A stretch of 32,000 nucleotides of DNA from Erysipelothrix larvae (GCF_001545095.1 NZ_CP013213.1:330001-362000), one strand, 5' to 3'; counted from the stretch's first letter, positions 14,896-22,127 are shown. Made by a program: numbers and translations. Notes: generated by a model not told the origin, from the sequence alone.

Positions 14896-14922
14896 AGATA
14901 CACACAACATCATGAAATAATG

Positions 14923-14957
14923 ATACCTGTAACAGAAATTTGTTACAGGTATTTTTA
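14923..14957 (+). terminator. Strong intrinsic terminator after the permease gene
   Basis: Perfect 12-bp stem ATACCTGTAACA gaaatt TGTTACAGGTAT, followed by TTTT. Confidence 0.85.
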
Positions 14958-15165: not shown

Positions 15166-15828
15166 ATGAAAGATAATACAAAGAAAAAGAGTTTAGCACT
15201 CTTTATTAGTTTATGTTCATTATTTATTTTCGCTGGATCACTTGTAGCGTACTTCAGCGATAAGGTAACTGGAGAGGCAAGCATTACAGCAGGTACGTTG
15301 GATATCGATGGTACTTATGAACTCTACTATAATGGTAGTGAAGAGAAAGTGCCGGATAACAAGCTCTTAAACTTTAATCCAGGGGATTATGTTGTAGTAA
15401 AAGCGAGCTTCACAAACGGAGGAACAAAGAGTGCATGGATTCGTAATTCAATCGGATTAACCGGGGGACTTGCTGAACTCACTACAGGTGAAGGGACACC
15501 AGTAATTTTAGTATATGAAGGAGAAGTTACCTCTAATTTTACACCTCAAAATGCAAAGAATCTAACATCAAACTCTTATATTTCTGGGACGAAGGTTATT
15601 GAAGGTTCAGCGGAAAAAGAACCTGAAGTTAACGGAGTCGAAAAATATGAAGTAACATACACAATTTACTTTAGTCCAGATGCTGGCAATAATGCACAAA
15701 GAAAGGATTTAGAACTAACTCTTCAAACTGAAGCTTTACAGTATAGAAATAATAAAGATATATCAGGAGATGATGCTTGGAAAAAAGTACAAGAGTATGT
15801 AGCTGACACAAATGTAGTTGAACCATAG
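15166..15828 (+). CDS. TasA/camelysin-family secreted protein with a SipW-type signal peptide (putative major fibre subunit)
   Basis: ATG 15166 lies 7 nt after AAGGGGGA. The signal is K-rich, then hydrophobic, then the VAYFSDKVTGEASITAGTLDI motif. The NFNPGDYVVVKASFTNGG and C-terminal AGNNAQRKDLELTLQTEALQYRNN segments parallel B. subtilis TasA (NLKPGDKLTKDFQFENNG; NKYQGNSIKLQFSFEATQWNG, recalled from memory). Confidence 0.8.
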   Translation: MKDNTKKKSLALFISLCSLFIFAGSLVAYFSDKVTGEASITAGTLDIDGTYELYYNGSEEKVPDNKLLNFNPGDYVVVKASFTNGGTKSAWIRNSIGLTGGLAELTTGEGTPVILVYEGEVTSNFTPQNAKNLTSNSYISGTKVIEGSAEKEPEVNGVEKYEVTYTIYFSPDAGNNAQRKDLELTLQTEALQYRNNKDISGDDAWKKVQEYVADTNVVEP

Positions 15829-15835
15829 TATCTAT

Positions 15836-16438
15836 ATGAGAGCATTAGTGGCAACATTCATTTGTTTGTTCACGCCAATCTCAGTGATTGATCTTAATCG
15901 TGCATTTGAAAATCAAAATGCAGTTTTACTTGAAATAAACGTTGATGATGTCCATCCAGGTACGTCATCAACGTTTACCTATGAGTTTGATAATACAATG
16001 GACTTTGAGGTCAGTCTCTATTTGATAAAGGTAGAAACAACAAACAACAATGAATTAACAAAAAACATTGTTTTAAGAATGTCTCAAAGTTCTATGGAGT
16101 TAGACCATAACGGAACTGAAATGAATCTATTAATTGCGACAATTGATAAAGGAGACCGCGTAAAAGTTGATTTTGAATACTCGATTGATCCACATGCTGG
16201 CAATGAAATACAAGGGTTATCAGAAACCTATCAACTTGAATTTATGATTTTTAATGGCGATTTGGACTTGCCTGATACAGGAAATCCAGACGTTGAATTA
16301 CCAACGCCCAATCCACCACTCATATTACCAAGTACAGGACTTGAAGGAGACAATCGTTGGCCAGTTATTGCGCTGGGAGGGGTGTTAATGGGAATCGCTC
16401 TTCTACTTAAGGAAAGGGATGATGAAGATGAAACATAA
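15836..16438 (+). CDS. TasA-like domain protein with a C-terminal LPSTG cell-wall sorting-type signal (putative anchor subunit)
   Basis: The start is uncertain: ATG 15836 lies 8 nt after the upstream stop and has no SD. Hydrophobic N-terminus plus RAFENQNAVLLEINV. DVHPGTSSTFTYEFDN and AGNEIQGLSETYQLEFMIFNGD match the TasA pattern. A Pro-rich linker leads to LPSTG (16325-16339), then a hydrophobic stretch VIALGGVLMGIALLL, then the tail KERDDEDET. Confidence 0.65.
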   Translation: MRALVATFICLFTPISVIDLNRAFENQNAVLLEINVDDVHPGTSSTFTYEFDNTMDFEVSLYLIKVETTNNNELTKNIVLRMSQSSMELDHNGTEMNLLIATIDKGDRVKVDFEYSIDPHAGNEIQGLSETYQLEFMIFNGDLDLPDTGNPDVELPTPNPPLILPSTGLEGDNRWPVIALGGVLMGIALLLKERDDEDET

Positions 16439-16946
16439 AATAATCGCGAATACAGTTCTAGTTTTATCAGTAATTTTACTTGTGCTAGCACTGTATTTTT
16501 CTTTTGTAAAAAAGGACAATGAAGAGATGTTTTTCTTTGGGTACAAACCGTTCATCATAACATCAGGATCAATGGAACCAAAGTATCCAGTAAATTCACT
16601 GGTGGTTGTGAAAAAAGTCGATGCATCAACCTTACAAGTCGGTGACGAAATTGCATTTTATAGTCATTTAATCAACGCAAACGTCTTCCACCGTATTGTG
16701 GATATCGATGATCAAGGATTTGTGACAAAAGGGGATAACAATAAGAATGCGGATCTTGAAATTGTTGAGACCATTGATGTATTAGGTAAAGCTGTGTTTT
16801 ACACTACTTTGACCACATCCATCATCGCTCATTTTAATTCACCACTTCATGTTGTACTGTATGGTGTTGTACCTGTATGTTCACTATATATTGGGGTGCA
16901 TTTTTTTGTTCGATATCGTAAAGAGAAACGGGGTGTGATCCAATGA
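16419..16946 (+). CDS. sipW: Signal peptidase I, SipW (ER/archaeal, Ser-His) type
   Basis: SGSMEP (catalytic Ser), FHRIVDID (His) and KGDNN motifs, with N- and C-terminal TM helices as in B. subtilis SipW. Alternative ATG starts at 16419, 16422 and 16428 follow AAGGAAAGGG. Overlaps the previous gene by up to 20 nt. Confidence 0.85.
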   Translation: MMKMKHKIIANTVLVLSVILLVLALYFSFVKKDNEEMFFFGYKPFIITSGSMEPKYPVNSLVVVKKVDASTLQVGDEIAFYSHLINANVFHRIVDIDDQGFVTKGDNNKNADLEIVETIDVLGKAVFYTTLTTSIIAHFNSPLHVVLYGVVPVCSLYIGVHFFVRYRKEKRGVIQ

Positions 16947-19270
16947 AACGTTTTGAAGTTCGTGCTTTTATCATCGGATGTATCCTAACGTGCCTTACGG
17001 TATTCATATCTCCAATTTCAGGGTTATTAAGTGATGTGGTTTCTCAATCCTTTAATATCAGTGCTTCAAAGATCCAAATCGAAGTCACGGACTTTAAGGT
17101 TAAACAAAACACCAAAACGTATCCTTTGGGTACTGATAGTCAGTTTGAGCCAACATTGATTCAAAATGAAGTGATGGGTATTGAATTTACTCTTAATAAC
17201 TCATCACCCTTTGATGTAGACGTTGAGGGCACCATCGAGTTATCCTTTGTGAACGAAGCAAATGAGACTCAGATTGTAACGCTGTATACGGGTGAAACGA
17301 AAGATGCTTCCATTAAAGCAGGCGAACTCAATGGCTTGATCATAGGAGAACAGGATCTTGATACTCAAGAATTATCAGCGACTTCGAACAATCGAACAGG
17401 TATTTCAAAGCAAGTCCTCGCTGACACTTTAACAACCAAAGATGGACTTGGTGAAGGGTTTAAATCAAAACGTTACACGTATAAACTGTATTTGGATGGG
17501 AATAACGTGGATAAAGAAACACTCATCAGCACAATAAAGGGTAACAAAATTGGGGTTGCGGTCAATGTTTTGGCATCACCTCAAAACAAACAGTCAACTT
17601 GGCAATCATCAGTTTCTACCTATGGTGAAATCAAAACGGGTGTTTTAAGGTCGCTCACATTCAATCTTACGGGTGATAATCCACTGTATGTATCAAAAGA
17701 CGATTCATATCTTGAACCAGGATGGGTTGCACAGGATGAGTATGATGATCCAGTATCGGTGGATGTTAGTGGTCAAGTTGAACCAAGCAAAATTGGGGAA
17801 TATACACTGGAGTACACTGCGAATTATTATGGTGAATTGCATAAGCTTAGTCGAACGGTTATTGTTACAGACCGTAAAAAGCCAGTCCTAAGACCTTATG
17901 TGGAAAATCCGAGAAAGTTTGTATCAGAGACAATTGATCTACGATCGTTTGTCCTTGTTGATGATGGACTCGCTGAACCAAATCTTAAGGATAAAATTGT
18001 CATTACAACACCATCAGATTATGATCCGATGAAACCAGGAAAATATAATATTTGCTACAATGTTACCAATGACATCGGTATGAAAGCAGATGAACTCTGC
18101 ATTAATCTTACGGTTTATGCATACAAAGAGATTGCACCAATGTATGACACAACAATTGCTCTTTCCACGGATGGTCATGTCTATAGCTGGGGCTTATCAT
18201 CAAATGGAGAAACTGGAAGAAACACAACAACTACACAATCTACACCGGGTGAAATCAGCGAACTGAGTGAGTATGAAGTGGTTAAAATAGATGGCGGAAG
18301 GAATTTTGGAATGGCGCTAACAGCTGATAATCGTATCTTTATATGGGGCAATGATTTTTTCGAAGGTGGTGGCGTTCAAGGTAATGGTGTGAAATTCATA
18401 AACAACTATGTTCCTAAAGAGCTTGTCGTGATGGATGGTTCAAAAGTAAAGTTTGTTCAAATATCCTGTGGTCGAAATACAGCTGCAGCATTGAGTGAAA
18501 ATGGCGTTGTATATACTTGGGGTGATGGAAACGATTACGCAAGCGGTCAAAACACGACTAATAGTATCTATGAACCAAAAGTGTTAAATATTGTAGGTAA
18601 TCCAACCATTAAGTTTGTTAACTTGGGTGTTAGGAATGGAGTTGCAATCGATACTGAAGATAACGTTTATTTTTGGGGACAAAATGGGTTAGGTGTCAAT
18701 AACAATGGAAGTGATGTTCGTGTACCTACCAATGTGAATGAAAAGCTTCGAAATATTAACGTTGATTCAAATATTGAAGCTACAGGTATTCCAAATATTA
18801 AAGAAATTTCATTAGGGACTGATCATGGATATATCCTTATGAATGACGGAAGGTTATATGCATGGGGGGAAAATGATCTTGGACAACTGGGGAATAACAC
18901 GAGAATGAGTGTTTCTCCAAAAGACCGTGTACCACAAATCATGACTGGATTTGGCGACTTCATTGATAAAGTTGAAGCGGGCGAGAATTATGGTGTTGCA
19001 CTGGATAGAAATGGAATAGCGTATGTTTGGGGATACAGTGCATTTGGATCTATTGGTGTATCAAATGGTACAGTACTCAAAACTCCTACCATCAAGAACC
19101 CAGCTGGTGGAAGGAAAATTACAAGCATCGGAGCATACTATGCAACGACTGGTCTTATCACAGAAGACGGATATCTGTATATGTCTGGAAGTAATGACTT
19201 CGGTGAGTTAGGAATTGGAAAAACTTCAGGTAATTCTTATGAATTTGTTAAAACACTCCACCCAGAATAA
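16943..19270 (+). CDS. Large secreted multidomain protein: SipW-type signal, TasA-like module, two Ig-like (DUF5011-like) domains and a 7-blade RCC1 beta-propeller
   Basis: ATGA overlap with sipW. The N-terminus has a hydrophobic helix followed by GLLSDVVSQSFNISASKIQIEV. Residues about 35-225 are beta-rich and end in LDGNNVDKE...VAVNVLASPQNKQ. Residues about 236-393 form two repeats of about 78 aa of the G.Y.L.Y.A...V.V.D type. Residues about 394-775 carry seven RCC1-like repeats (GHVYSWG, NRIFIWG, GVVYTWG, DNVYFWG, GRLYAWGENDLGQLG, GIAYVWG, GYLYMSGSNDFGELG). Confidence 0.8.
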   Translation: MKRFEVRAFIIGCILTCLTVFISPISGLLSDVVSQSFNISASKIQIEVTDFKVKQNTKTYPLGTDSQFEPTLIQNEVMGIEFTLNNSSPFDVDVEGTIELSFVNEANETQIVTLYTGETKDASIKAGELNGLIIGEQDLDTQELSATSNNRTGISKQVLADTLTTKDGLGEGFKSKRYTYKLYLDGNNVDKETLISTIKGNKIGVAVNVLASPQNKQSTWQSSVSTYGEIKTGVLRSLTFNLTGDNPLYVSKDDSYLEPGWVAQDEYDDPVSVDVSGQVEPSKIGEYTLEYTANYYGELHKLSRTVIVTDRKKPVLRPYVENPRKFVSETIDLRSFVLVDDGLAEPNLKDKIVITTPSDYDPMKPGKYNICYNVTNDIGMKADELCINLTVYAYKEIAPMYDTTIALSTDGHVYSWGLSSNGETGRNTTTTQSTPGEISELSEYEVVKIDGGRNFGMALTADNRIFIWGNDFFEGGGVQGNGVKFINNYVPKELVVMDGSKVKFVQISCGRNTAAALSENGVVYTWGDGNDYASGQNTTNSIYEPKVLNIVGNPTIKFVNLGVRNGVAIDTEDNVYFWGQNGLGVNNNGSDVRVPTNVNEKLRNINVDSNIEATGIPNIKEISLGTDHGYILMNDGRLYAWGENDLGQLGNNTRMSVSPKDRVPQIMTGFGDFIDKVEAGENYGVALDRNGIAYVWGYSAFGSIGVSNGTVLKTPTIKNPAGGRKITSIGAYYATTGLITEDGYLYMSGSNDFGELGIGKTSGNSYEFVKTLHPE

Positions 19271-19397
19271 GCTCATGGTGAAAAAGAAAGTACAGCGTTT
19301 TAGTGATGCTGTTAAGTAAGTAAAAACCAAGTTAGTGGATTAAACAGGTTCTAAGGTCAAGAACATAGTTTAGACAGAAGAGAATATTTTCTATGCC

Positions 19398-19436
19398 AAA
19401 AGAGGTACTATCACGAATCAGTGACAGTACCTCTTT
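19398..19436. terminator. Hairpin between the convergent RCC1-protein gene and mutY
   Basis: AAAGAGGTACTaTCAC gaatca GTGAcAGTACCTCTTT gives 15 bp with one A/C mismatch. The U-tracts are short on both strands. Confidence 0.55.
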
Positions 19437-19612
19437 GTCAATAAGCTAGAAGTCTATAATTCTTTTGTATTTTGGGTATACGAAAACTGAATTTTTGGTC
19501 AAATTACTTATTAATGATATTTATTTAAAATCTATAAATCCTAGTAAAGAGTGTTAAGGTCGTTTATATAACTGAGGACTTCATCGTTTTTTCAGTTCTG
19601 TGGATTTTTGAT

Positions 19613-20611
19613 TCACTGACTTGGTTTTATTTGCTCTAAATGAGCGATGAGAATTTTCTTATGCGCGGTAATCATTGCCTTTGAATTGACTTCATTAAGA
19701 TCCATAAGATGCCAGTTTTCATTGGCAGAAGTAGCTTCACTTAAGGGATGAACGTGGATATCCCATTCTAGGTGTGAGAATTTGTGTTTGAGTGTGAGAA
19801 GGGGCGGTGTGTCTTGATGACCATCAGTCATGGGTAAACGAAGTAAACCTTTCATCAATCCGTCACTGTCATCGGTTGATACTAAGAGGGAATGATTCTG
19901 TTGATAATACCAAACAGTTTTCTTAAAAGAAGGGACTTTCTTTGCTTTTGGAATATAAGGGATTTGTCCGATGTTTTCACCTCGATACCCTGCACACATT
20001 TCTTTAAAAGGACTGCCAACACATAAAGTGTTTGAAGGTGTATAGACCAAGGCACCCAGTTCCATCATGGCTTGATTAAAGTCACTTGGATTGGCTTTGC
20101 TTTCAATCAGTTCTTTCTTTAAAAAGGATTCAAAAACTTTATGTGCTTTTCGTGCGTTTACATTCTCAGTATAGTTTAAATAGCGTGCCATCACCCGTTT
20201 CACATTTCCATCAATGACGATTTCGGGTTGGTCAAAGGCGATGGATGCGATTGCGCTGGATGTATAATCCCCAATGCCTGGGATCAATAGAAGTTCTTCT
20301 TTCGTAGAAGGGATGATGCCATTGAAGTGTTCCATGACAAAAAGCGCGCCTTTGTGTAAGTTTCGAGCGCGGTTATAATATCCCAATCCCTCCCAATGTT
20401 TGAGGACATCATTGATATCTGCAGCTGCGAGTGTGCTCACATCTGGAAATGATTCAATCCATCGATTGTAATAGGGGATCATGGTTGCGATTTGTGTTTG
20501 CTGGGCCATAATCTCACTGACCCAAATGTGATAGGGGTCTTTTGAGGCGCGAAAGGGTAAGTCTCGCTTGTTTTCATGATACCAGTTTAAGAGTCTTTTC
20601 GTAAATTCCAT
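19613..20611 (-). CDS. mutY: A/G-specific adenine DNA glycosylase MutY (Fe-S ligand set incomplete)
   Basis: Trimmed to MEFTKRLLNWYHENKRDLPFR. HhH-GPD core with the catalytic-Glu motif VSEIMAQQTQ and the Asp motif VIDGNVKRV. The C-terminal NUDIX-like domain is present. The TTG/GTG extension in the ORF track has no SD. Confidence 0.9.
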   Translation of the reverse strand: MEFTKRLLNWYHENKRDLPFRASKDPYHIWVSEIMAQQTQIATMIPYYNRWIESFPDVSTLAAADINDVLKHWEGLGYYNRARNLHKGALFVMEHFNGIIPSTKEELLLIPGIGDYTSSAIASIAFDQPEIVIDGNVKRVMARYLNYTENVNARKAHKVFESFLKKELIESKANPSDFNQAMMELGALVYTPSNTLCVGSPFKEMCAGYRGENIGQIPYIPKAKKVPSFKKTVWYYQQNHSLLVSTDDSDGLMKGLLRLPMTDGHQDTPPLLTLKHKFSHLEWDIHVHPLSEATSANENWHLMDLNEVNSKAMITAHKKILIAHLEQIKPSQ

Positions 20612-20627
20612 AAATGTATTATACACC

Positions 20628-20660
20628 AAAAAAAAGAAAAGGGGTGTGTGAGCCCTTTTC
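20628..20660 (-). terminator. Minus-strand intrinsic terminator immediately upstream of the mutY start
   Basis: On the minus strand: GAAAAGGG ctcacacac CCCTTTTC followed by T8. It sits 17 nt upstream of the mutY ATG. Confidence 0.5.
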
Positions 20661-20840: not shown

Positions 20841-22127
20841 ATGATGAAAAATAATGACGGAATTCAATTCTATGAGAAAAAAAGCATAAAAAAATTCTCG
20901 TTTATTCTCCAAATTTTATTTGGACTTTTTGTAATTGTGATTGGTATCTCCATCATAATGCGTGAAAATTTTTGGTGGTGGGTTGTGAAACTATTAATCC
21001 AAGCTTTATTAGTTGGTACGGTATTTACCTTCTTATTTCGTTCAATCACAAATCGAAACCGACTGGATCTTTTAATATCTTTTGGCTCATTAGGATTCTT
21101 TATTTATTCTCTTTTTAATGAGAACATCTTCATGGAATTCTTTTCATTGTTCTTTGGTGTATGGGCTTTGTTTAATGCAGCAGTTAGAGGTTTAGAGTTA
21201 TTTGTTTCTTTCCAAAGAAAACAGAAAGGGAAAATTGTGATTACCCTTGAGTTTTTAGCGGGATTTGTCATGGGGACTTCATTATTAGTGTCCGGGGCAG
21301 AATCTGCTTTCTTTGTAAACTTACAAGTTGGGATTTATCTAATCTTGCATGGCATCTTACAAATTGTGGATCTCTTTAGAGTGAATCTTGGTTCAGGGTA
21401 CACGTTGAGAATGCCAGCTCCGATATTCGCTACAGCGTTACTTCCAAGTTTCCTTGTGAAGAAAATTGAGCGAGAAGTCGCATTGAATCCAGATCTTGTA
21501 CTGGATACGGTTGAACCTACAATCGGGGATTATGTTTCAATTTATATCTATATCAAAGATTATGGATATAATCGCATGGGTCATATTGATATTGGATATA
21601 ATGGAGCAATCTATTCGTATGGGTGTCACGATCCGCTCAATCGGCATTCAACTCAAGCTTATGGTGATGGTGTGTTGATTGTAGGATCTGAGTGCGAATT
21701 TGTACAGTATAGTGTGGATGATAGTTCGACAGTATATCGGTTCTTGTGTAAACTCACACCACAACAACGGGATCGGATCGAAGAACGCATTGACTTGTTG
21801 ATGAAACCTGCCTACTACTATGATTATCCTTTGGATCATGAGAAGACGAAAGATTCATACTTAAAACATCTGAAAGATTCACAAGTGGGGGTTGATTATT
21901 ATAAATTTATCAGTGGACCCTTTAAGACATACAATGTCTTTACCACAAACTGCGTGCTTGTTGCGGAGTATATTGTACAATCTACTGGAATGCAGTTGTT
22001 CCATGTGAATGGAATTATTACACCTGGAACGTATTACTCTTATTTGCATAGTAATGTGGGAAGAGTGGGGTCAATTGTTGAGAAAGAATATATTTATAAG
22101 AAAATTGGAGCGAAACCCAAGTACTAA
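20841..22127 (+). CDS. Integral membrane protein with a C-terminal soluble domain of unknown function (His...Asn-Cys motif pair)
   Basis: About 6 hydrophobic helices occupy residues 20-205 and resemble HdeD/DUF308-type helices. The C-terminal 220 aa contain MGHIDIGYNGAIYSYG (His248) and YNVFTTNCVLVAEYIV (Cys371). Confidence 0.65.
   Translation: MMKNNDGIQFYEKKSIKKFSFILQILFGLFVIVIGISIIMRENFWWWVVKLLIQALLVGTVFTFLFRSITNRNRLDLLISFGSLGFFIYSLFNENIFMEFFSLFFGVWALFNAAVRGLELFVSFQRKQKGKIVITLEFLAGFVMGTSLLVSGAESAFFVNLQVGIYLILHGILQIVDLFRVNLGSGYTLRMPAPIFATALLPSFLVKKIEREVALNPDLVLDTVEPTIGDYVSIYIYIKDYGYNRMGHIDIGYNGAIYSYGCHDPLNRHSTQAYGDGVLIVGSECEFVQYSVDDSSTVYRFLCKLTPQQRDRIEERIDLLMKPAYYYDYPLDHEKTKDSYLKHLKDSQVGVDYYKFISGPFKTYNVFTTNCVLVAEYIVQSTGMQLFHVNGIITPGTYYSYLHSNVGRVGSIVEKEYIYKKIGAKPKY

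What the first reader, a model, noticed from the sequence alone, without database searches (positions are those of the whole stretch)
16943..19270. 775-aa chimera: SipW-type signal, TasA-like module, two Ig-like domains and a seven-blade RCC1 propeller
The domain layout, read directly from the translation:
- Residues 1-45: a signal with the GLLSD...SASKIQIEV motif.
- Residues about 35-225 (nt 17045-17617): a beta-rich module ending in LDGNNVDKETLISTIKGNKIGVAVNVLASPQNKQ. This echoes the terminal GN..Q...A.Q strand of TasA-family proteins.
- Residues about 236-393 (nt 17648-18121): two tandem repeats of about 78 aa with DUF5011-like hallmarks (EPSKIGEYTLEYTANYYGELHKLSRTVIVTDRKKP and DPMKPGKYNICYNVTNDIGMKADELCINLTVYA).
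- Residues about 394-775 (nt 18122-19267): seven W/S-G-containing RCC1 repeats.

RCC1/BLIP-II-type propellers are usually ligand- or protein-binding modules. One fused to a fibre-subunit module and translationally coupled to sipW suggests a dedicated adhesin or tip subunit. An alternative is a matrix-embedded binding protein.
Basis: partly seen in the sequence, partly recalled or inferred. Interest (0 to 1): 0.75.

Follow-up and report, generated by a model that had tools for sequence, protein, structure and literature searches.

The report
Propeller-headed accessory protein of TasA-like fibre
This gene encodes a large secreted protein from a gut-type Firmicute whose N-terminus copies the strand that links subunits of a TasA-like surface fibre, followed by a stalk and a seven-bladed RCC1 propeller, so it is most likely a minor binding subunit of that fibre – a new variant of a known kind of system, not a new kind.

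Summary
The 775-aa ORF (16943-19270, +) is real. Profiles confirm two Bact_surface_Ig-like (ex-DUF5011) domains and a seven-blade RCC1 propeller (PF25390, E 1e-68). The start codon overlaps the sipW stop (ATGA).

The N-module (residues 1-235) matches no Pfam, NCBIfam or PDB sequence. It shows no detectable similarity to TasA itself. Two AlphaFold models (pLDDT 61) give a beta-sandwich, with the TasA fibre only rank 15 in Foldseek at TM ~0.3.

What is robust is the N-terminus. After a predicted cleavage at 27|28, the mature end (LLSD...SASKIQIEV) aligns without gaps to that of the cassette's own camelysin/TasA-family protein P1 (YFSD...TAGTLDIDG). hhalign gives E 4e-6, and none of 300 shuffles reaches the score. 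In TasA this segment is the donor strand.

Only four relatives exist among 1.8 billion representative proteins. All are 763-773 aa with the same architecture, all follow sipW, and three sit in the same P1-P2(LPXTG)-sipW-P4 cassette. One host is identified (Erysipelotrichaceae MAG).

Best reading: a SipW-processed, TapA-like minor subunit that plugs its N-terminal strand into P1 and displays a propeller head. It is the positional analogue of C. perfringens BsaC.

Novelty: new variant of a known kind. The first reader is partly supported.

The parts
14922..14953 (+). Terminator-like hairpin ending the upstream permease gene. It marks the 5' boundary of the four-gene cassette.
   Evidence: 14-bp stem followed by a T-run; a 212-nt gap follows before the P1 start
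15166..15828 (+). P1, the presumed major fibre subunit. It belongs to the camelysin/TasA family and has a SipW-type signal (…LVA|YFSD…TAGTLDIDG).
   Evidence: PF12389 is hit by all 4 orthologues (best E 1.1e-8) and TIGR04088 by all 4. hhalign against the TasA 8AUR sequence gives E 1.7e-4, with 0 of 120 nulls reaching the score. The ATG at 15166 is supported by the orthologues.
15836..16438 (+). P2, a small beta-rich protein with a C-terminal LPDTG/LPSTG sorting signal, a TM segment and a charged tail. It is the presumed wall-anchored base subunit.
   Evidence: TIGR01167 scores 15.9 bits, at its cutoff. The motif is conserved as LANTG and IPDTG in orthologues. Similarity to TasA is marginal (E 5.5e-3; 1 of 120 nulls).
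16419..16946 (+). sipW, an archaeal/ER-type signal peptidase I. It overlaps the P2 stop and the P4 start.
   Evidence: TIGR02228 E 3e-24; SipW model NF046067 E 4.7e-16, below its cutoff; overlaps seen
16943..17023 (+). P4 residues 1-27: signal peptide (n-region MKR, h-region 8-22, c-region SPISG). Cleavage is predicted at G27|L28.
   Evidence: Hydropathy. Position -1 is G/S/S/S and position -3 is I/I/V/A in all family members. The invariant S30-D31 puts the Asp at +4, as in TasA (A28-F-N-D) and P1 (Y29-F-S-D). Cleavage itself is inferred, not shown.
17024..17092 (+). P4 residues 28-50: P1-like mature N-terminal strand (LLSDVVSQSFNISASKIQIEVTD). It is the putative donor strand plus the first core strand.
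   Evidence: hhalign of the P4 family against the P1 family, starting at this motif, gives E 3.7e-6, with 0 of 300 shuffles reaching the score. The alignment is ungapped. The segment has low confidence in both models (pLDDT below 50 for residues 18-42 and 28-40). The equivalent TasA residues 28-38 are the donor strand (PMC9674648).
17093..17647 (+). P4 residues 51-235: core of the orphan beta-sandwich N-module.
   Evidence: The AF2 models have pLDDT 61 and pTM 0.62-0.66, with 12-14 strands. There are no profile or PDB-sequence hits. Collinear similarity to the P1 core is modest (E 4e-3; 1 of 200 block shuffles). The TasA fibre 8aur_A is rank 15 with TM 0.31.
17648..17887 (+). P4 residues 236-315: Ig-like domain 1 (Bact_surface_Ig-like, ex-DUF5011).
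   Evidence: PF16403 best stretch 241-308, E 1.7e-16
17888..18121 (+). P4 residues 316-393: Ig-like domain 2.
   Evidence: It is the second PF16403 stretch. It resembles domain 1 (E 0.008). It is conserved in all homologues.
18122..19267 (+). P4 residues 394-775: seven-blade RCC1-like beta-propeller.
   Evidence: PF25390 E 1.1e-68, PF13540 with 6 stretches, PF00415 with 5 stretches; seven blade motifs spaced 52-63 aa apart
18122..18577 (+). Blades 1-3 (residues 394-545): the segment that diverges between near-identical strains.
   Evidence: Against L001 it is 72-87% identical at nucleotide level (dS 0.62, dN/dS 0.24). The Ig domains and blades 4-7 are about 100% identical, and the flanks 99.7%.

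Best explanation
P4 is the minor, binding subunit of a TasA/BsaA-type donor-strand surface fibre encoded by the cassette P1-P2-sipW-P4.

Proposed mechanism:
1. P4 is exported by Sec and cut by the co-encoded SipW after residue 27.
2. Cleavage exposes an N-terminal strand (x-[F/L]-S-D...) that mimics the donor strand of the major subunit P1.
3. P4 inserts this strand into the acceptor groove of a P1 subunit, as TapA does for TasA. That would start a filament and leave P4 at the end made first, which is the distal tip.
4. P1 subunits then add by donor-strand exchange.
5. The LPXTG protein P2, which lacks the SD strand motif, would accept the last strand and be linked to peptidoglycan by a sortase encoded elsewhere.
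6. The rest of P4 projects outward to bind a ligand that is still unknown. It consists of the beta-sandwich N-module, two Ig-like stalk domains and a seven-blade RCC1 propeller.

What is shown:
- the domain architecture;
- the signal peptide;
- the P1-like N-terminal segment;
- the conserved sipW coupling and cassette;
- the absence of any other anchor in P4.

What is inferred:
- SipW cleavage;
- strand insertion into P1;
- the tip position;
- the roles of P2 and of the propeller.
For: (1) The architecture is confirmed by profiles and by the seven-blade count.

(2) P1 is a genuine camelysin/TasA-family protein with a SipW-cognate signal. SipW is identified.

(3) The P4 family and the P1 family share the N-terminal segment. 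hhalign gives 94.7% probability and E 6e-8 over the full length. Starting at xxSD it gives E 3.7e-6, with 0 of 300 shuffles reaching the score. The alignment is ungapped, with S-D invariant at +3/+4 from the predicted cleavage site. The hydrophobic positions +2, +5/6 and +12 match the TasA donor-strand contacts F29, I32 and F39 (PMC9674648; TasA sequence verified).

(4) That segment has low confidence (pLDDT below 50) in both monomer models, as expected for a strand without a partner.

(5) The family is tiny: four relatives among 1.84 billion representatives. All are 763-773 aa with the same layout. Every one lies directly downstream of a sipW. Three sit in the same four-gene cassette, in unrelated neighbourhoods and with the same ATGA overlap.

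(6) P4 has no LPXTG motif, no second TM segment and no wall-binding domain. Its N-terminus is therefore the only evident means of attachment.

(7) There are precedents. TapA donates its N-terminal strand to TasA, is low in abundance, its gene overlaps sipW, and it sits only at the start of a filament (PMC10151520, PMC9674648). TasA-family operons often carry LPxTG and adhesin-domain genes, and heteropolymers have been proposed (PMC11580942).

(8) Between near-identical strains, divergence is concentrated in P1 and in propeller blades 1-3. This fits exposed, interacting surfaces.
Against: No curated SipW-signal, TasA, TapA or BsaA profile recognises P4 or any of its homologues.

The N-module profile shows no similarity to TasA itself.

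Both structure models are of modest confidence. Their Foldseek neighbours are generic beta-sandwiches, with the TasA fibre only at rank 15 and TM 0.3.

Across the P4 family, the N-terminal strand is no better conserved than the rest of the N-module (26-32% against 28%).

In locus L006 a P4 homologue occurs with its own sipW but without an adjacent P1 or P2. Fibre attachment may therefore not be obligatory, or it may use subunits encoded elsewhere.

BsaC, the positional analogue in C. perfringens, is recovered as a secreted monomer (PMC11580942).

No multimer prediction could be run, and nothing has been tested experimentally.
Confidence: 0.5

Rival explanations
1. P4 is a soluble or matrix-embedded binding protein, like BsaC. 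It uses the cassette's SipW only for signal removal. It is then released, or it binds the fibre or matrix non-covalently through its propeller or Ig domains. It is not a filament subunit. Its P1-like N-terminus reflects only what SipW needs to recognise a substrate.
For: BsaC is a 70-kDa VWA protein encoded by the fourth gene of sipW-bsaA-bsaB-bsaC. It is found as a secreted monomer and its function is unknown (PMC11580942). The x-F-S/N-D motif right after the cleavage site could be a SipW recognition element, not a donor strand; TIGR04088 treats it as part of the signal. L006 carries sipW plus a P4 homologue without P1 or P2. The N-module is not demonstrably TasA-like.
Against: The similarity to P1 extends well past the cleavage site, into the first core strand and modestly beyond. 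In TasA and BsaA the same residues are the structurally verified or mutationally supported donor strand (PMC9674648, PMC11580942). The low-abundance, sipW-coupled gene arrangement parallels TapA (PMC10151520). If released, P4 would have no means of staying on the producing cell.
Confidence: 0.27
2. P4 caps the opposite end of the fibre. Its N-module is a TasA-like acceptor that takes up the free donor strand of the last P1. P2 would then initiate the fibre at the wall with its own N-terminus.
For: The P4 core shows modest collinear similarity to the P1 core, which contains the acceptor groove (E 1e-3 to 4e-3; 0-1 of 200 shuffles). The TasA fibre-form subunit appears among the top 15 Foldseek hits only for the mature-form model.
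Against: P4 keeps the invariant SD strand motif that an end-cap acceptor would not need. P2 lacks it. A2 against A4, and A3 against A4, show no N-terminal similarity. In TapA the Ig domain following the strand is complete and cannot accept a strand (PMC10151520). The fold evidence is too weak to infer a groove.
Confidence: 0.1
3. P4 is an independent surface or secreted RCC1 protein with no functional tie to the fibre. The adjacency to sipW and the N-terminal resemblance would be historical accidents, for example a leader copied from P1.
For: RCC1-repeat surface proteins occur on their own in gut Gram-positives, LPxTG-anchored in bee-gut bifidobacteria (PMC4449606). The N-module is an orphan.
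Against: All five family members lie immediately downstream of a sipW. Three divergent cassettes keep the 4-nt overlap, despite 25-38% identity in the N-module and different genomic neighbourhoods. No member of the family was found in any other context.
Confidence: 0.08

Closest known systems
[quoted passage not shown]
   Same: It is a SipW-dependent minor protein. Its gene overlaps sipW. Its mature N-terminus resembles the major subunit's donor strand and is disordered in the monomer. That strand is followed by a beta-sandwich domain. It is proposed to supply the first donor strand and to sit only at the beginning of a filament (PMC10151520, PMC9674648).
   Different: TapA has 253 aa and no stalk or propeller. 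P4 does not match the TapA profile TIGR04087. The gene order differs (tapA lies before sipW; P4 lies after). TapA is thought to sit near the cell or membrane, whereas the cassette here has a separate LPXTG protein for anchoring.
BsaC (CPE0517) of the Clostridium perfringens sipW-bsaA-bsaB-bsaC operon
   Same: It is a large (~70 kDa) signal-bearing protein encoded by the last gene of a four-gene SipW/TasA-family operon. It carries a protein-interaction domain. Related operons contain an LPXTG BsaB-like protein. Its function is unknown (PMC11580942).
   Different: BsaC's interaction domain is von Willebrand A, not RCC1, and no VWA hit is found in P4. BsaC is detected as a secreted monomer whose export depends on type IV pilus genes. 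No P1-like donor strand has been reported for it.
TasA / CalY / BsaA major subunits (Pfam PF12389 Peptidase_M73, IPR022121)
   Same: They associate with SipW. They share the x-F-[S/N]-D N-terminal segment after cleavage and a beta-sandwich body. P1 of this cassette is a member.
   Different: P4 does not reach any family profile and shows no similarity to TasA itself. It is three times longer, with C-terminal Ig and propeller domains that no described major subunit has.
LPxTG-anchored RCC1-repeat surface proteins of bee-gut Bifidobacterium
   Same: They are extracellular seven-repeat RCC1 propellers on a repeat or Ig-type stalk in gut Gram-positives. They diverge strongly between strains (PMC4449606). 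Here blades 1-3 diverge between near-identical strains.
   Different: Those proteins are anchored directly by a C-terminal LPxTG and carry 2-4 propellers with Flg_new repeats. P4 has one propeller and no sorting signal, and it is tied to SipW and a TasA-like cassette.
Two-domain tip adhesins of donor-strand pili (e.g. FimH of type 1 pili) and tip pilins of sortase pili (own knowledge, not tested here)
   Same: The logic is the same: a minor subunit made of a fibre-attachment part plus a binding head, incorporated first and displayed at the tip, with a basal subunit anchoring the fibre.
   Different: FimH accepts a donor strand rather than donating one, and it needs a chaperone-usher machine. 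Sortase tip pilins are joined covalently through LPXTG and pilin motifs, which P4 lacks. No homology is implied.

Membership tests
TasA/camelysin family (Pfam PF12389 Peptidase_M73; NCBIfam NF046066 TasA, TIGR04090 BsaA) | The sequence matches the family profile at or above the curated cutoff. | tested here: not met
   There is no hit for P4 or for the isolated N-modules of all 5 family members, even at E<=10. As a positive control, P1 orthologues hit PF12389 in 4 of 4 cases, best E 1.1e-8.
TasA/camelysin family | Detectable sequence similarity to TasA itself. | tested here: not met
   hhalign of A5 against the 8AUR sequence scores 13.9 (E 0.3), and 62 of 120 block shuffles do as well. P1 scores 33.6 (E 1.7e-4), with 0 of 120.
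TasA/camelysin family | A jelly-roll or Ig-like beta-sandwich fold superposable on TasA (5OF1/5OF2/8AUR). | tested here: inconclusive
TasA/camelysin family | Collinear similarity to a bona fide family member from the same cassette (P1). | tested here: met
   hhalign gives E 6e-8 over the full length and E 3.7e-6 starting at xxSD. After the SD motif it gives E 1e-3, with 0 of 300 nulls reaching the score. After the first strand it gives E 4e-3, with 1 of 200 block nulls and 0 of 100 column nulls. The signal is strongest in the first ~50 residues.
SipW-dependent substrates (NCBIfam TIGR04088 cognate_SipW signal) | Match to the SipW-cognate signal profile. | tested here: not met
   No hit for any P4 family member. 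All four P1 orthologues hit it, best E 4e-4.
SipW-dependent substrates | A signal peptide followed by x-[FYL]-[FL]-[SNT]-D close to the cleavage site, and a gene adjacent to sipW. | tested here: met
   S30-D31 is invariant. Small residues occupy -1 and small or aliphatic residues occupy -3 at 27|28. The ATGA overlap with sipW is conserved in 3 cassettes, and a sipW lies directly upstream in all 5 loci.
SipW-dependent substrates | Actual cleavage by SipW. | not testable with these tools
   This needs N-terminal sequencing or mass spectrometry in sipW+ and sipW- backgrounds.
TapA-like filament initiators (TIGR04087) | Match to the TapA profile. | tested here: not met
   No hit.
TapA-like filament initiators | A mature N-terminus that mimics the major subunit's donor strand, and a gene translationally coupled to sipW. 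| tested here: met
   for the strand; for the overlap. The criteria are taken from PMC9674648 and PMC10151520.
TapA-like filament initiators | Donation of the strand to the major subunit, and nucleation of filaments. | not testable with these tools
An in-vitro polymerisation assay is needed.
RCC1-like beta-propeller (PF25390, PF00415, PF13540) | Profile match above the cutoff, and seven repeats. | tested here: met
   PF25390 scores 232.7 bits against a cutoff of 150. PF13540 scores 137.7 bits and PF00415 121.1 bits. Seven blade motifs are present.
Bact_surface_Ig-like (PF16403, formerly DUF5011) | Profile match above the cutoff. | tested here: met
   60.5 bits against a cutoff of 27, in 2 stretches.
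Sortase-dependent surface proteins and pilus tip adhesins | A C-terminal LPXTG sorting signal (motif, TM segment, charged tail). | tested here: not met
   No LPXTG-like motif and no second hydrophobic segment occurs in any P4 family member. P2 carries the sorting signal instead.
BsaC-type accessory proteins | A von Willebrand A domain. | tested here: not met
   No VWA family appears among the Pfam hits at E<=1. Only the operon position and the protein size are shared.

The most novel reading that the evidence does not exclude
The cassette builds a hybrid Gram-positive pilus of a type not yet demonstrated. Its shaft is polymerised by TasA-type donor-strand exchange. Its base is fixed to peptidoglycan by sortase, through the LPXTG protein P2. 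A TapA-like initiator starts the fibre and doubles as the tip adhesin, carrying an RCC1 propeller head. One Erysipelotrichaceae genome would carry up to three such loci. Their shaft subunit and propeller face are exchanged by recombination, giving strain-level variation in binding or antigenicity.
Probability: 0.3. Interest if true: 0.7.

Novelty: new variant of a known kind. Interest (0 to 1): 0.5.

Why it matters
TasA-type fibres are known mainly as biofilm matrix scaffolds in Bacillus and Clostridium. How they are anchored is still unclear, and so is whether they carry dedicated adhesins. BsaC's role is unknown, and TapA has no binding head.

This cassette offers a clean, minimal test case. 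Its four genes have separable predicted roles: shaft, LPXTG base, peptidase, and a strand-bearing subunit with a propeller head. If the model holds, it would show three things:
- donor-strand fibres of Gram-positives can be polar, wall-anchored and tipped with an adhesin, like chaperone-usher or sortase pili;
- a TapA-like initiator can be elaborated into an adhesin;
- bacterial extracellular RCC1 propellers, whose ligands are essentially unknown, have a concrete display context in a gut lineage (Erysipelotrichaceae).

If the model fails, P4 is still a useful second example of a BsaC-type accessory protein.

Tried and rejected
1. Word-index homologue searches with the N-module, both as a single sequence and as a profile, found nothing. 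They missed even P0001, so this is a limit of that tool. The exhaustive phmmer search found the four relatives.

2. Scans of genome contigs with P4 and with the N-module profile found only P0010's own MAG. Scans of metagenome contigs with the N-module and P1 profiles found nothing. I could not enlarge the family or the alignments.

I used hhalign against the verified TasA sequence as the calibration instead.

5. The first hhalign result (E 6e-8) was not taken at face value. Trimming showed that most of the signal lies in the first ~50 residues. Shuffle nulls were then used. An earlier null run timed out and another had a parsing error; both were discarded.

7. I considered a BsaA-type isopeptide lock (N35-E56-K74). 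The positions could not be mapped without a BsaA alignment or a multimer model, so I make no claim.

8. I looked for a riboswitch or other known RNA in the operon leader and across the window. Nothing reached a gathering score; the only sub-threshold match was a partial SSRC10 hit on the terminator (E 0.014).

9. I looked for cassette-specific co-variation between the P4 and P1 strands. There are too few sequences, and no clear signal (inspection).

10. No sortase gene lies in the 32-kb window.


Full report
**1. Checking the observation**

Its ATG overlaps the stop codon of the preceding gene as ATGA, and a GGGGTG Shine-Dalgarno-like element lies 8 nt upstream.

The preceding gene is a SipW-type signal peptidase. 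It matches TIGR02228 (archaeal/ER-type signal peptidase I) at E 3e-24. It matches the Bacillus SipW model at E 4.7e-16, below that model's equivalog cutoff.

Pfam confirms the C-terminal two-thirds of the protein:
- an RCC1-like propeller (PF25390, 232.7 bits against a cutoff of 150; PF13540 E 5.8e-41 in six stretches; PF00415 E 2.8e-35 in five stretches);
- two Bact_surface_Ig-like stretches (PF16403, the former DUF5011, E 1.7e-16).

I counted seven blade signatures of the form h-h-a-l-x-x-[DN]G-x-h-[YF]-x-[WS]G. They lie at residues 413, 465, 523, 575, 638, 693 and 745, spaced 52-63 residues apart. The two Ig halves resemble each other weakly (E 0.008).

The N-terminus has two basic residues and a hydrophobic stretch at residues 8-22. 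No other segment approaches TM-like hydrophobicity. There is no LPXTG-like motif in this protein or in any homologue.

**2. The N-module**

Residues 1-235 hit nothing in Pfam or NCBIfam. That holds when the N-modules of all five family members are scanned on their own at E<=10. The models that fail include camelysin PF12389, the SipW-cognate signal TIGR04088, TasA, TapA and BsaA. No PDB sequence matches, either with the single sequence or with a profile.

AlphaFold2 on the five-sequence alignment gave a beta-sandwich of modest confidence. With the signal the model had pLDDT 61 and pTM 0.62. In the mature form from residue 28 it had pLDDT 61 and pTM 0.66.

I verified the TasA sequence against PDB 8AUR and compared profiles directly:
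- P1 family against TasA: score 33.6, E 1.7e-4, 0 of 120 block shuffles as high.
- P2 against TasA: marginal, E 5.5e-3, 1 of 120.
- P4 N-module against TasA: score 13.9, E 0.3, 62 of 120 shuffles as high. This is no signal.

**3. What is robust: a P1-like N-terminus**

The first gene of the cassette is P1 (15166-15828). It is a genuine camelysin/TasA-family protein with a SipW-cognate signal. All four orthologues hit PF12389 (best E 1.1e-8) and TIGR04088. Some also touch the TasA, TapA and BsaA models.

A profile-profile comparison of the P4 N-module family with the P1 family gave 94.7% probability and E 6e-8. I trimmed the alignments to find where the signal lies, and calibrated each trim with column and 8-column block shuffles:

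| Alignment starts | Score | E-value | Shuffles reaching the score |
|---|---|---|---|
| at the xxSD motif | 44.3 | 3.7e-6 | 0 of 300 |
| after SD | 29.1 | 1e-3 | 0 of 300 |
| after the first strand | 25.2 | 4e-3 | 1 of 200 block, 0 of 100 column |

The register is the same in every trim: QNxVxxIxFxVxNxS aligns with PGDxVVVKAxFTNxG, and RYTYKLYL aligns with YxVxYTIxF.

So the strong similarity lies in the first ~50 residues. The cores share a modest, collinear similarity that is empirically unusual.

Anchored on the invariant S30-D31, the two families align without gaps:
- P1: ...LVA|YFSDKVTGEASITAGTLDIDG
- P4: ...ISG|LLSDVVSQSFNISASKIQIEV
- most canonical P4 homologue (P0010): ...SS|YFSDVVNGNATATAGSVDLRI

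All five P4-family proteins have the SD at residues 30-31. All have a small residue at position 27 (G/S/S/S) and I/I/V/A at position 25. This predicts cleavage at 27|28 and puts the Asp at +4, as in TasA (A28-F-N-D).

In the TasA fibre structure, residues 28-38 are the donor strand inserted into the next subunit. F29, I32 and F39 are its hydrophobic contacts, and residues 48-61 self-complement the monomer (PMC9674648). P4 has hydrophobic residues at the equivalent +2, +5/+6 and +12 positions (L29, V32/V33, I39).

In both monomer models this segment is the least confident part. That is expected for a strand without a partner, although a shallow alignment would produce the same result.

**4. Family and context**

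An exhaustive phmmer search of 1.84 billion representative proteins with the N-module found only four relatives:
- P0001, 95% identical;
- P0008, 38% identical;
- P0009, 31% identical;
- P0010, 26% identical.

All are 763-773 aa and align end to end with the same architecture.

P0010 comes from an uncultured Erysipelotrichaceae MAG. The window's own gene content fits a low-GC Firmicute chromosome (GC 0.39): a mevalonate pathway, LDH, BipA, TGT/QueA and other housekeeping genes.

The four-gene cassette has this composition:
- P1-like protein, about 220 aa;
- P2-like protein, about 190-200 aa;
- sipW, about 175 aa;
- P4-like protein.

It recurs in L001, L002 and L003-L005, in unrelated neighbourhoods. 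The 4-nt sipW/P4 overlap is the same in each, and P2 and sipW also overlap.

P2 ends in a sortase sorting signal: LPDTG plus LPSTG here, LANTG and IPDTG in orthologues, then a TM segment and a charged tail. P2 has no SD strand motif.

L006 holds a reduced module. It has sipW plus the P4 homologue P0009, without P1 or P2, flanked by four Mga-type regulators.

L001, L002 and L006 come from one sequencing run. Their composition matches the window (tetranucleotide r >= 0.96). This is consistent with three paralogous loci in one genome or genus.

**5. Mechanism**

The closest precedent is TapA. Its disordered N-terminus resembles the TasA donor strand and is proposed to provide the first strand. 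[quoted passage not shown] It is as scarce as SipW, and its gene overlaps sipW (PMC10151520, PMC9674648).

P4 repeats each of these features and adds a stalk and a propeller. It has no anchor of its own. The N-terminal strand is therefore the only evident way for it to stay with the cell.

I therefore favour the following model (confidence 0.5):
1. SipW cuts P4 at 27|28.
2. The exposed strand inserts into P1.
3. P1 subunits extend the fibre by donor-strand exchange. New subunits are added at the membrane-proximal end, as proposed for BsaA (PMC11580942).
4. P2 terminates the fibre and is linked to the wall by a sortase encoded elsewhere.
5. P4 ends up distal and presents its RCC1 head.

Only the sequence features are shown. 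Cleavage, strand insertion, polarity and binding are all inferred.

**6. Rivals**

(a) A BsaC-like released or matrix protein that needs SipW only for processing (0.27). BsaC is the fourth gene of sipW-bsaA-bsaB-bsaC. It carries a VWA domain and is recovered as a secreted monomer. The SD motif could be a SipW recognition element, and L006 lacks P1 and P2.

(b) P4 as an acceptor cap at the other end of the fibre (0.1). This is disfavoured because P4, and not P2, keeps the strand motif.

(c) No functional tie to the fibre (0.08). This is disfavoured because every family member follows a sipW.

**7. Comparison with what is known, and novelty**

The general class is already described. BsaA/TasA-family operons often include LPxTG proteins, fibronectin, SpaA and choice-of-anchor-A domain proteins, signal peptidases and sortases. 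Heteropolymeric donor-strand filaments have been proposed, and members are noted in Coprobacillaceae (PMC11580942). Surface RCC1 propellers that diversify between strains are known in bee-gut bifidobacteria, where they are LPxTG-anchored (PMC4449606).

Three things are new here:
- the specific fusion of a P1-like strand, an orphan beta-sandwich, two Ig-like domains and an RCC1 propeller;
- its rarity;
- the neat four-gene arrangement, which suggests a polar, wall-anchored fibre tipped with an adhesin.

I found no paper in the held library that links RCC1 to bacterial TasA systems. I therefore rate it a new variant of a known kind, with interest 0.5.

P4 should not be filed as a member of PF12389, TIGR04088 or TapA. 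Those profile tests were run and not met. The claim that it works like TapA rests on the strand similarity and on the genomic coupling.

**8. A side observation bearing on function**

The window and L001 are near-identical strains. The flanking permease is 99.7% identical at nucleotide level, P2 99.3% and sipW 99.2%. Divergence is confined to three places:
- P1, at 82% nucleotide identity;
- residues ~26-125 of the P4 N-module, at 91-97%;
- propeller blades 1-3, at 72-87% (dS 0.62, dN/dS 0.24).

The Ig domains and blades 4-7 are identical.

The high dS points to imported alleles, not to point mutation. The pattern fits recombination at exposed or interacting surfaces, namely the shaft subunit, the module next to it, and one face of the propeller.

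Noticed in passing
window 15166-15828 and 18122-18577, compared with L001 8239-8886 and 10001-12322: Divergence between two near-identical strains is mosaic. P1 is only 82% identical at nucleotide level, and P4 blades 1-3 are 72-87% identical (dS 0.62). P2, sipW, both Ig domains, blades 4-7 and the flanking permease are 99-100% identical. This suggests allelic replacement by recombination in the exposed parts of the system.
   Followed up: partly
L006 5862-15154: This is a reduced module: sipW (167 aa) plus the P4 homologue P0009, with no P1 or P2. It is flanked by four Mga/HTH_11-type regulator genes. It may be a separately regulated paralogue that relies on fibre subunits encoded elsewhere.
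   Followed up: no
L001, L002, L006 (all from run SRR6161627) compared with the window: Three loci carrying P4-family genes share the window's GC content (0.37-0.39) and tetranucleotide profile (r >= 0.96). This is consistent with three paralogous loci in one genome or genus. P0010's host (L003-L005, L007; GC 0.44) is a different Erysipelotrichaceae species.
   Followed up: partly
window 16270-16438 (P2 C-terminus): P2 carries two sorting-type motifs in tandem (LPDTG, then LPSTG 17 residues later). They precede the TM segment and an unusually acidic tail (KERDDEDET). Orthologues have LANTG or IPDTG. No sortase gene lies in the 32-kb window.
   Followed up: partly
window 15160/15166, 15818/15836 and 16419/16422: The mechanically listed TTG starts of P1 and P2 are probably wrong. 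Orthologues support ATG 15166 for P1 and ATG 15836 for P2. P2 and sipW overlap by 17-20 nt, and sipW and P4 by 4 nt. P2, sipW and P4 are therefore tightly coupled, while P1 is separated by a short gap.
   Followed up: yes
window 15836-16438 (P2): P2 has no Pfam family. Even so, its region around DVHPG...FTYEFDN aligns with TasA's LKPGD...FQFENNG (hhalign E 5.5e-3; 1 of 120 shuffles). Its GNEIQ motif aligns with P1's GNNAQ. It may be a second, very divergent TasA-like subunit.
   Followed up: partly
window 20841-22127: This 428-aa ORF has a multi-TM N-terminal half and a C-terminal half with no family assignment, apart from a sub-threshold DUF308 hit.
   Followed up: no
window 19271-19612: The consensus scan found no terminator-like hairpin between the P4 stop and the convergent mutY-like gene (19613-20629, minus strand). 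How the operon transcript ends is unclear.
   Followed up: no
tool behaviour (searches compared): The word-index homologue search returned nothing for the N-module, either as a sequence or as a profile. Yet P0001 (95% identical) is in that database and was found with the full-length query. Negative results from that tool for short divergent domains should not be trusted.
   Followed up: yes
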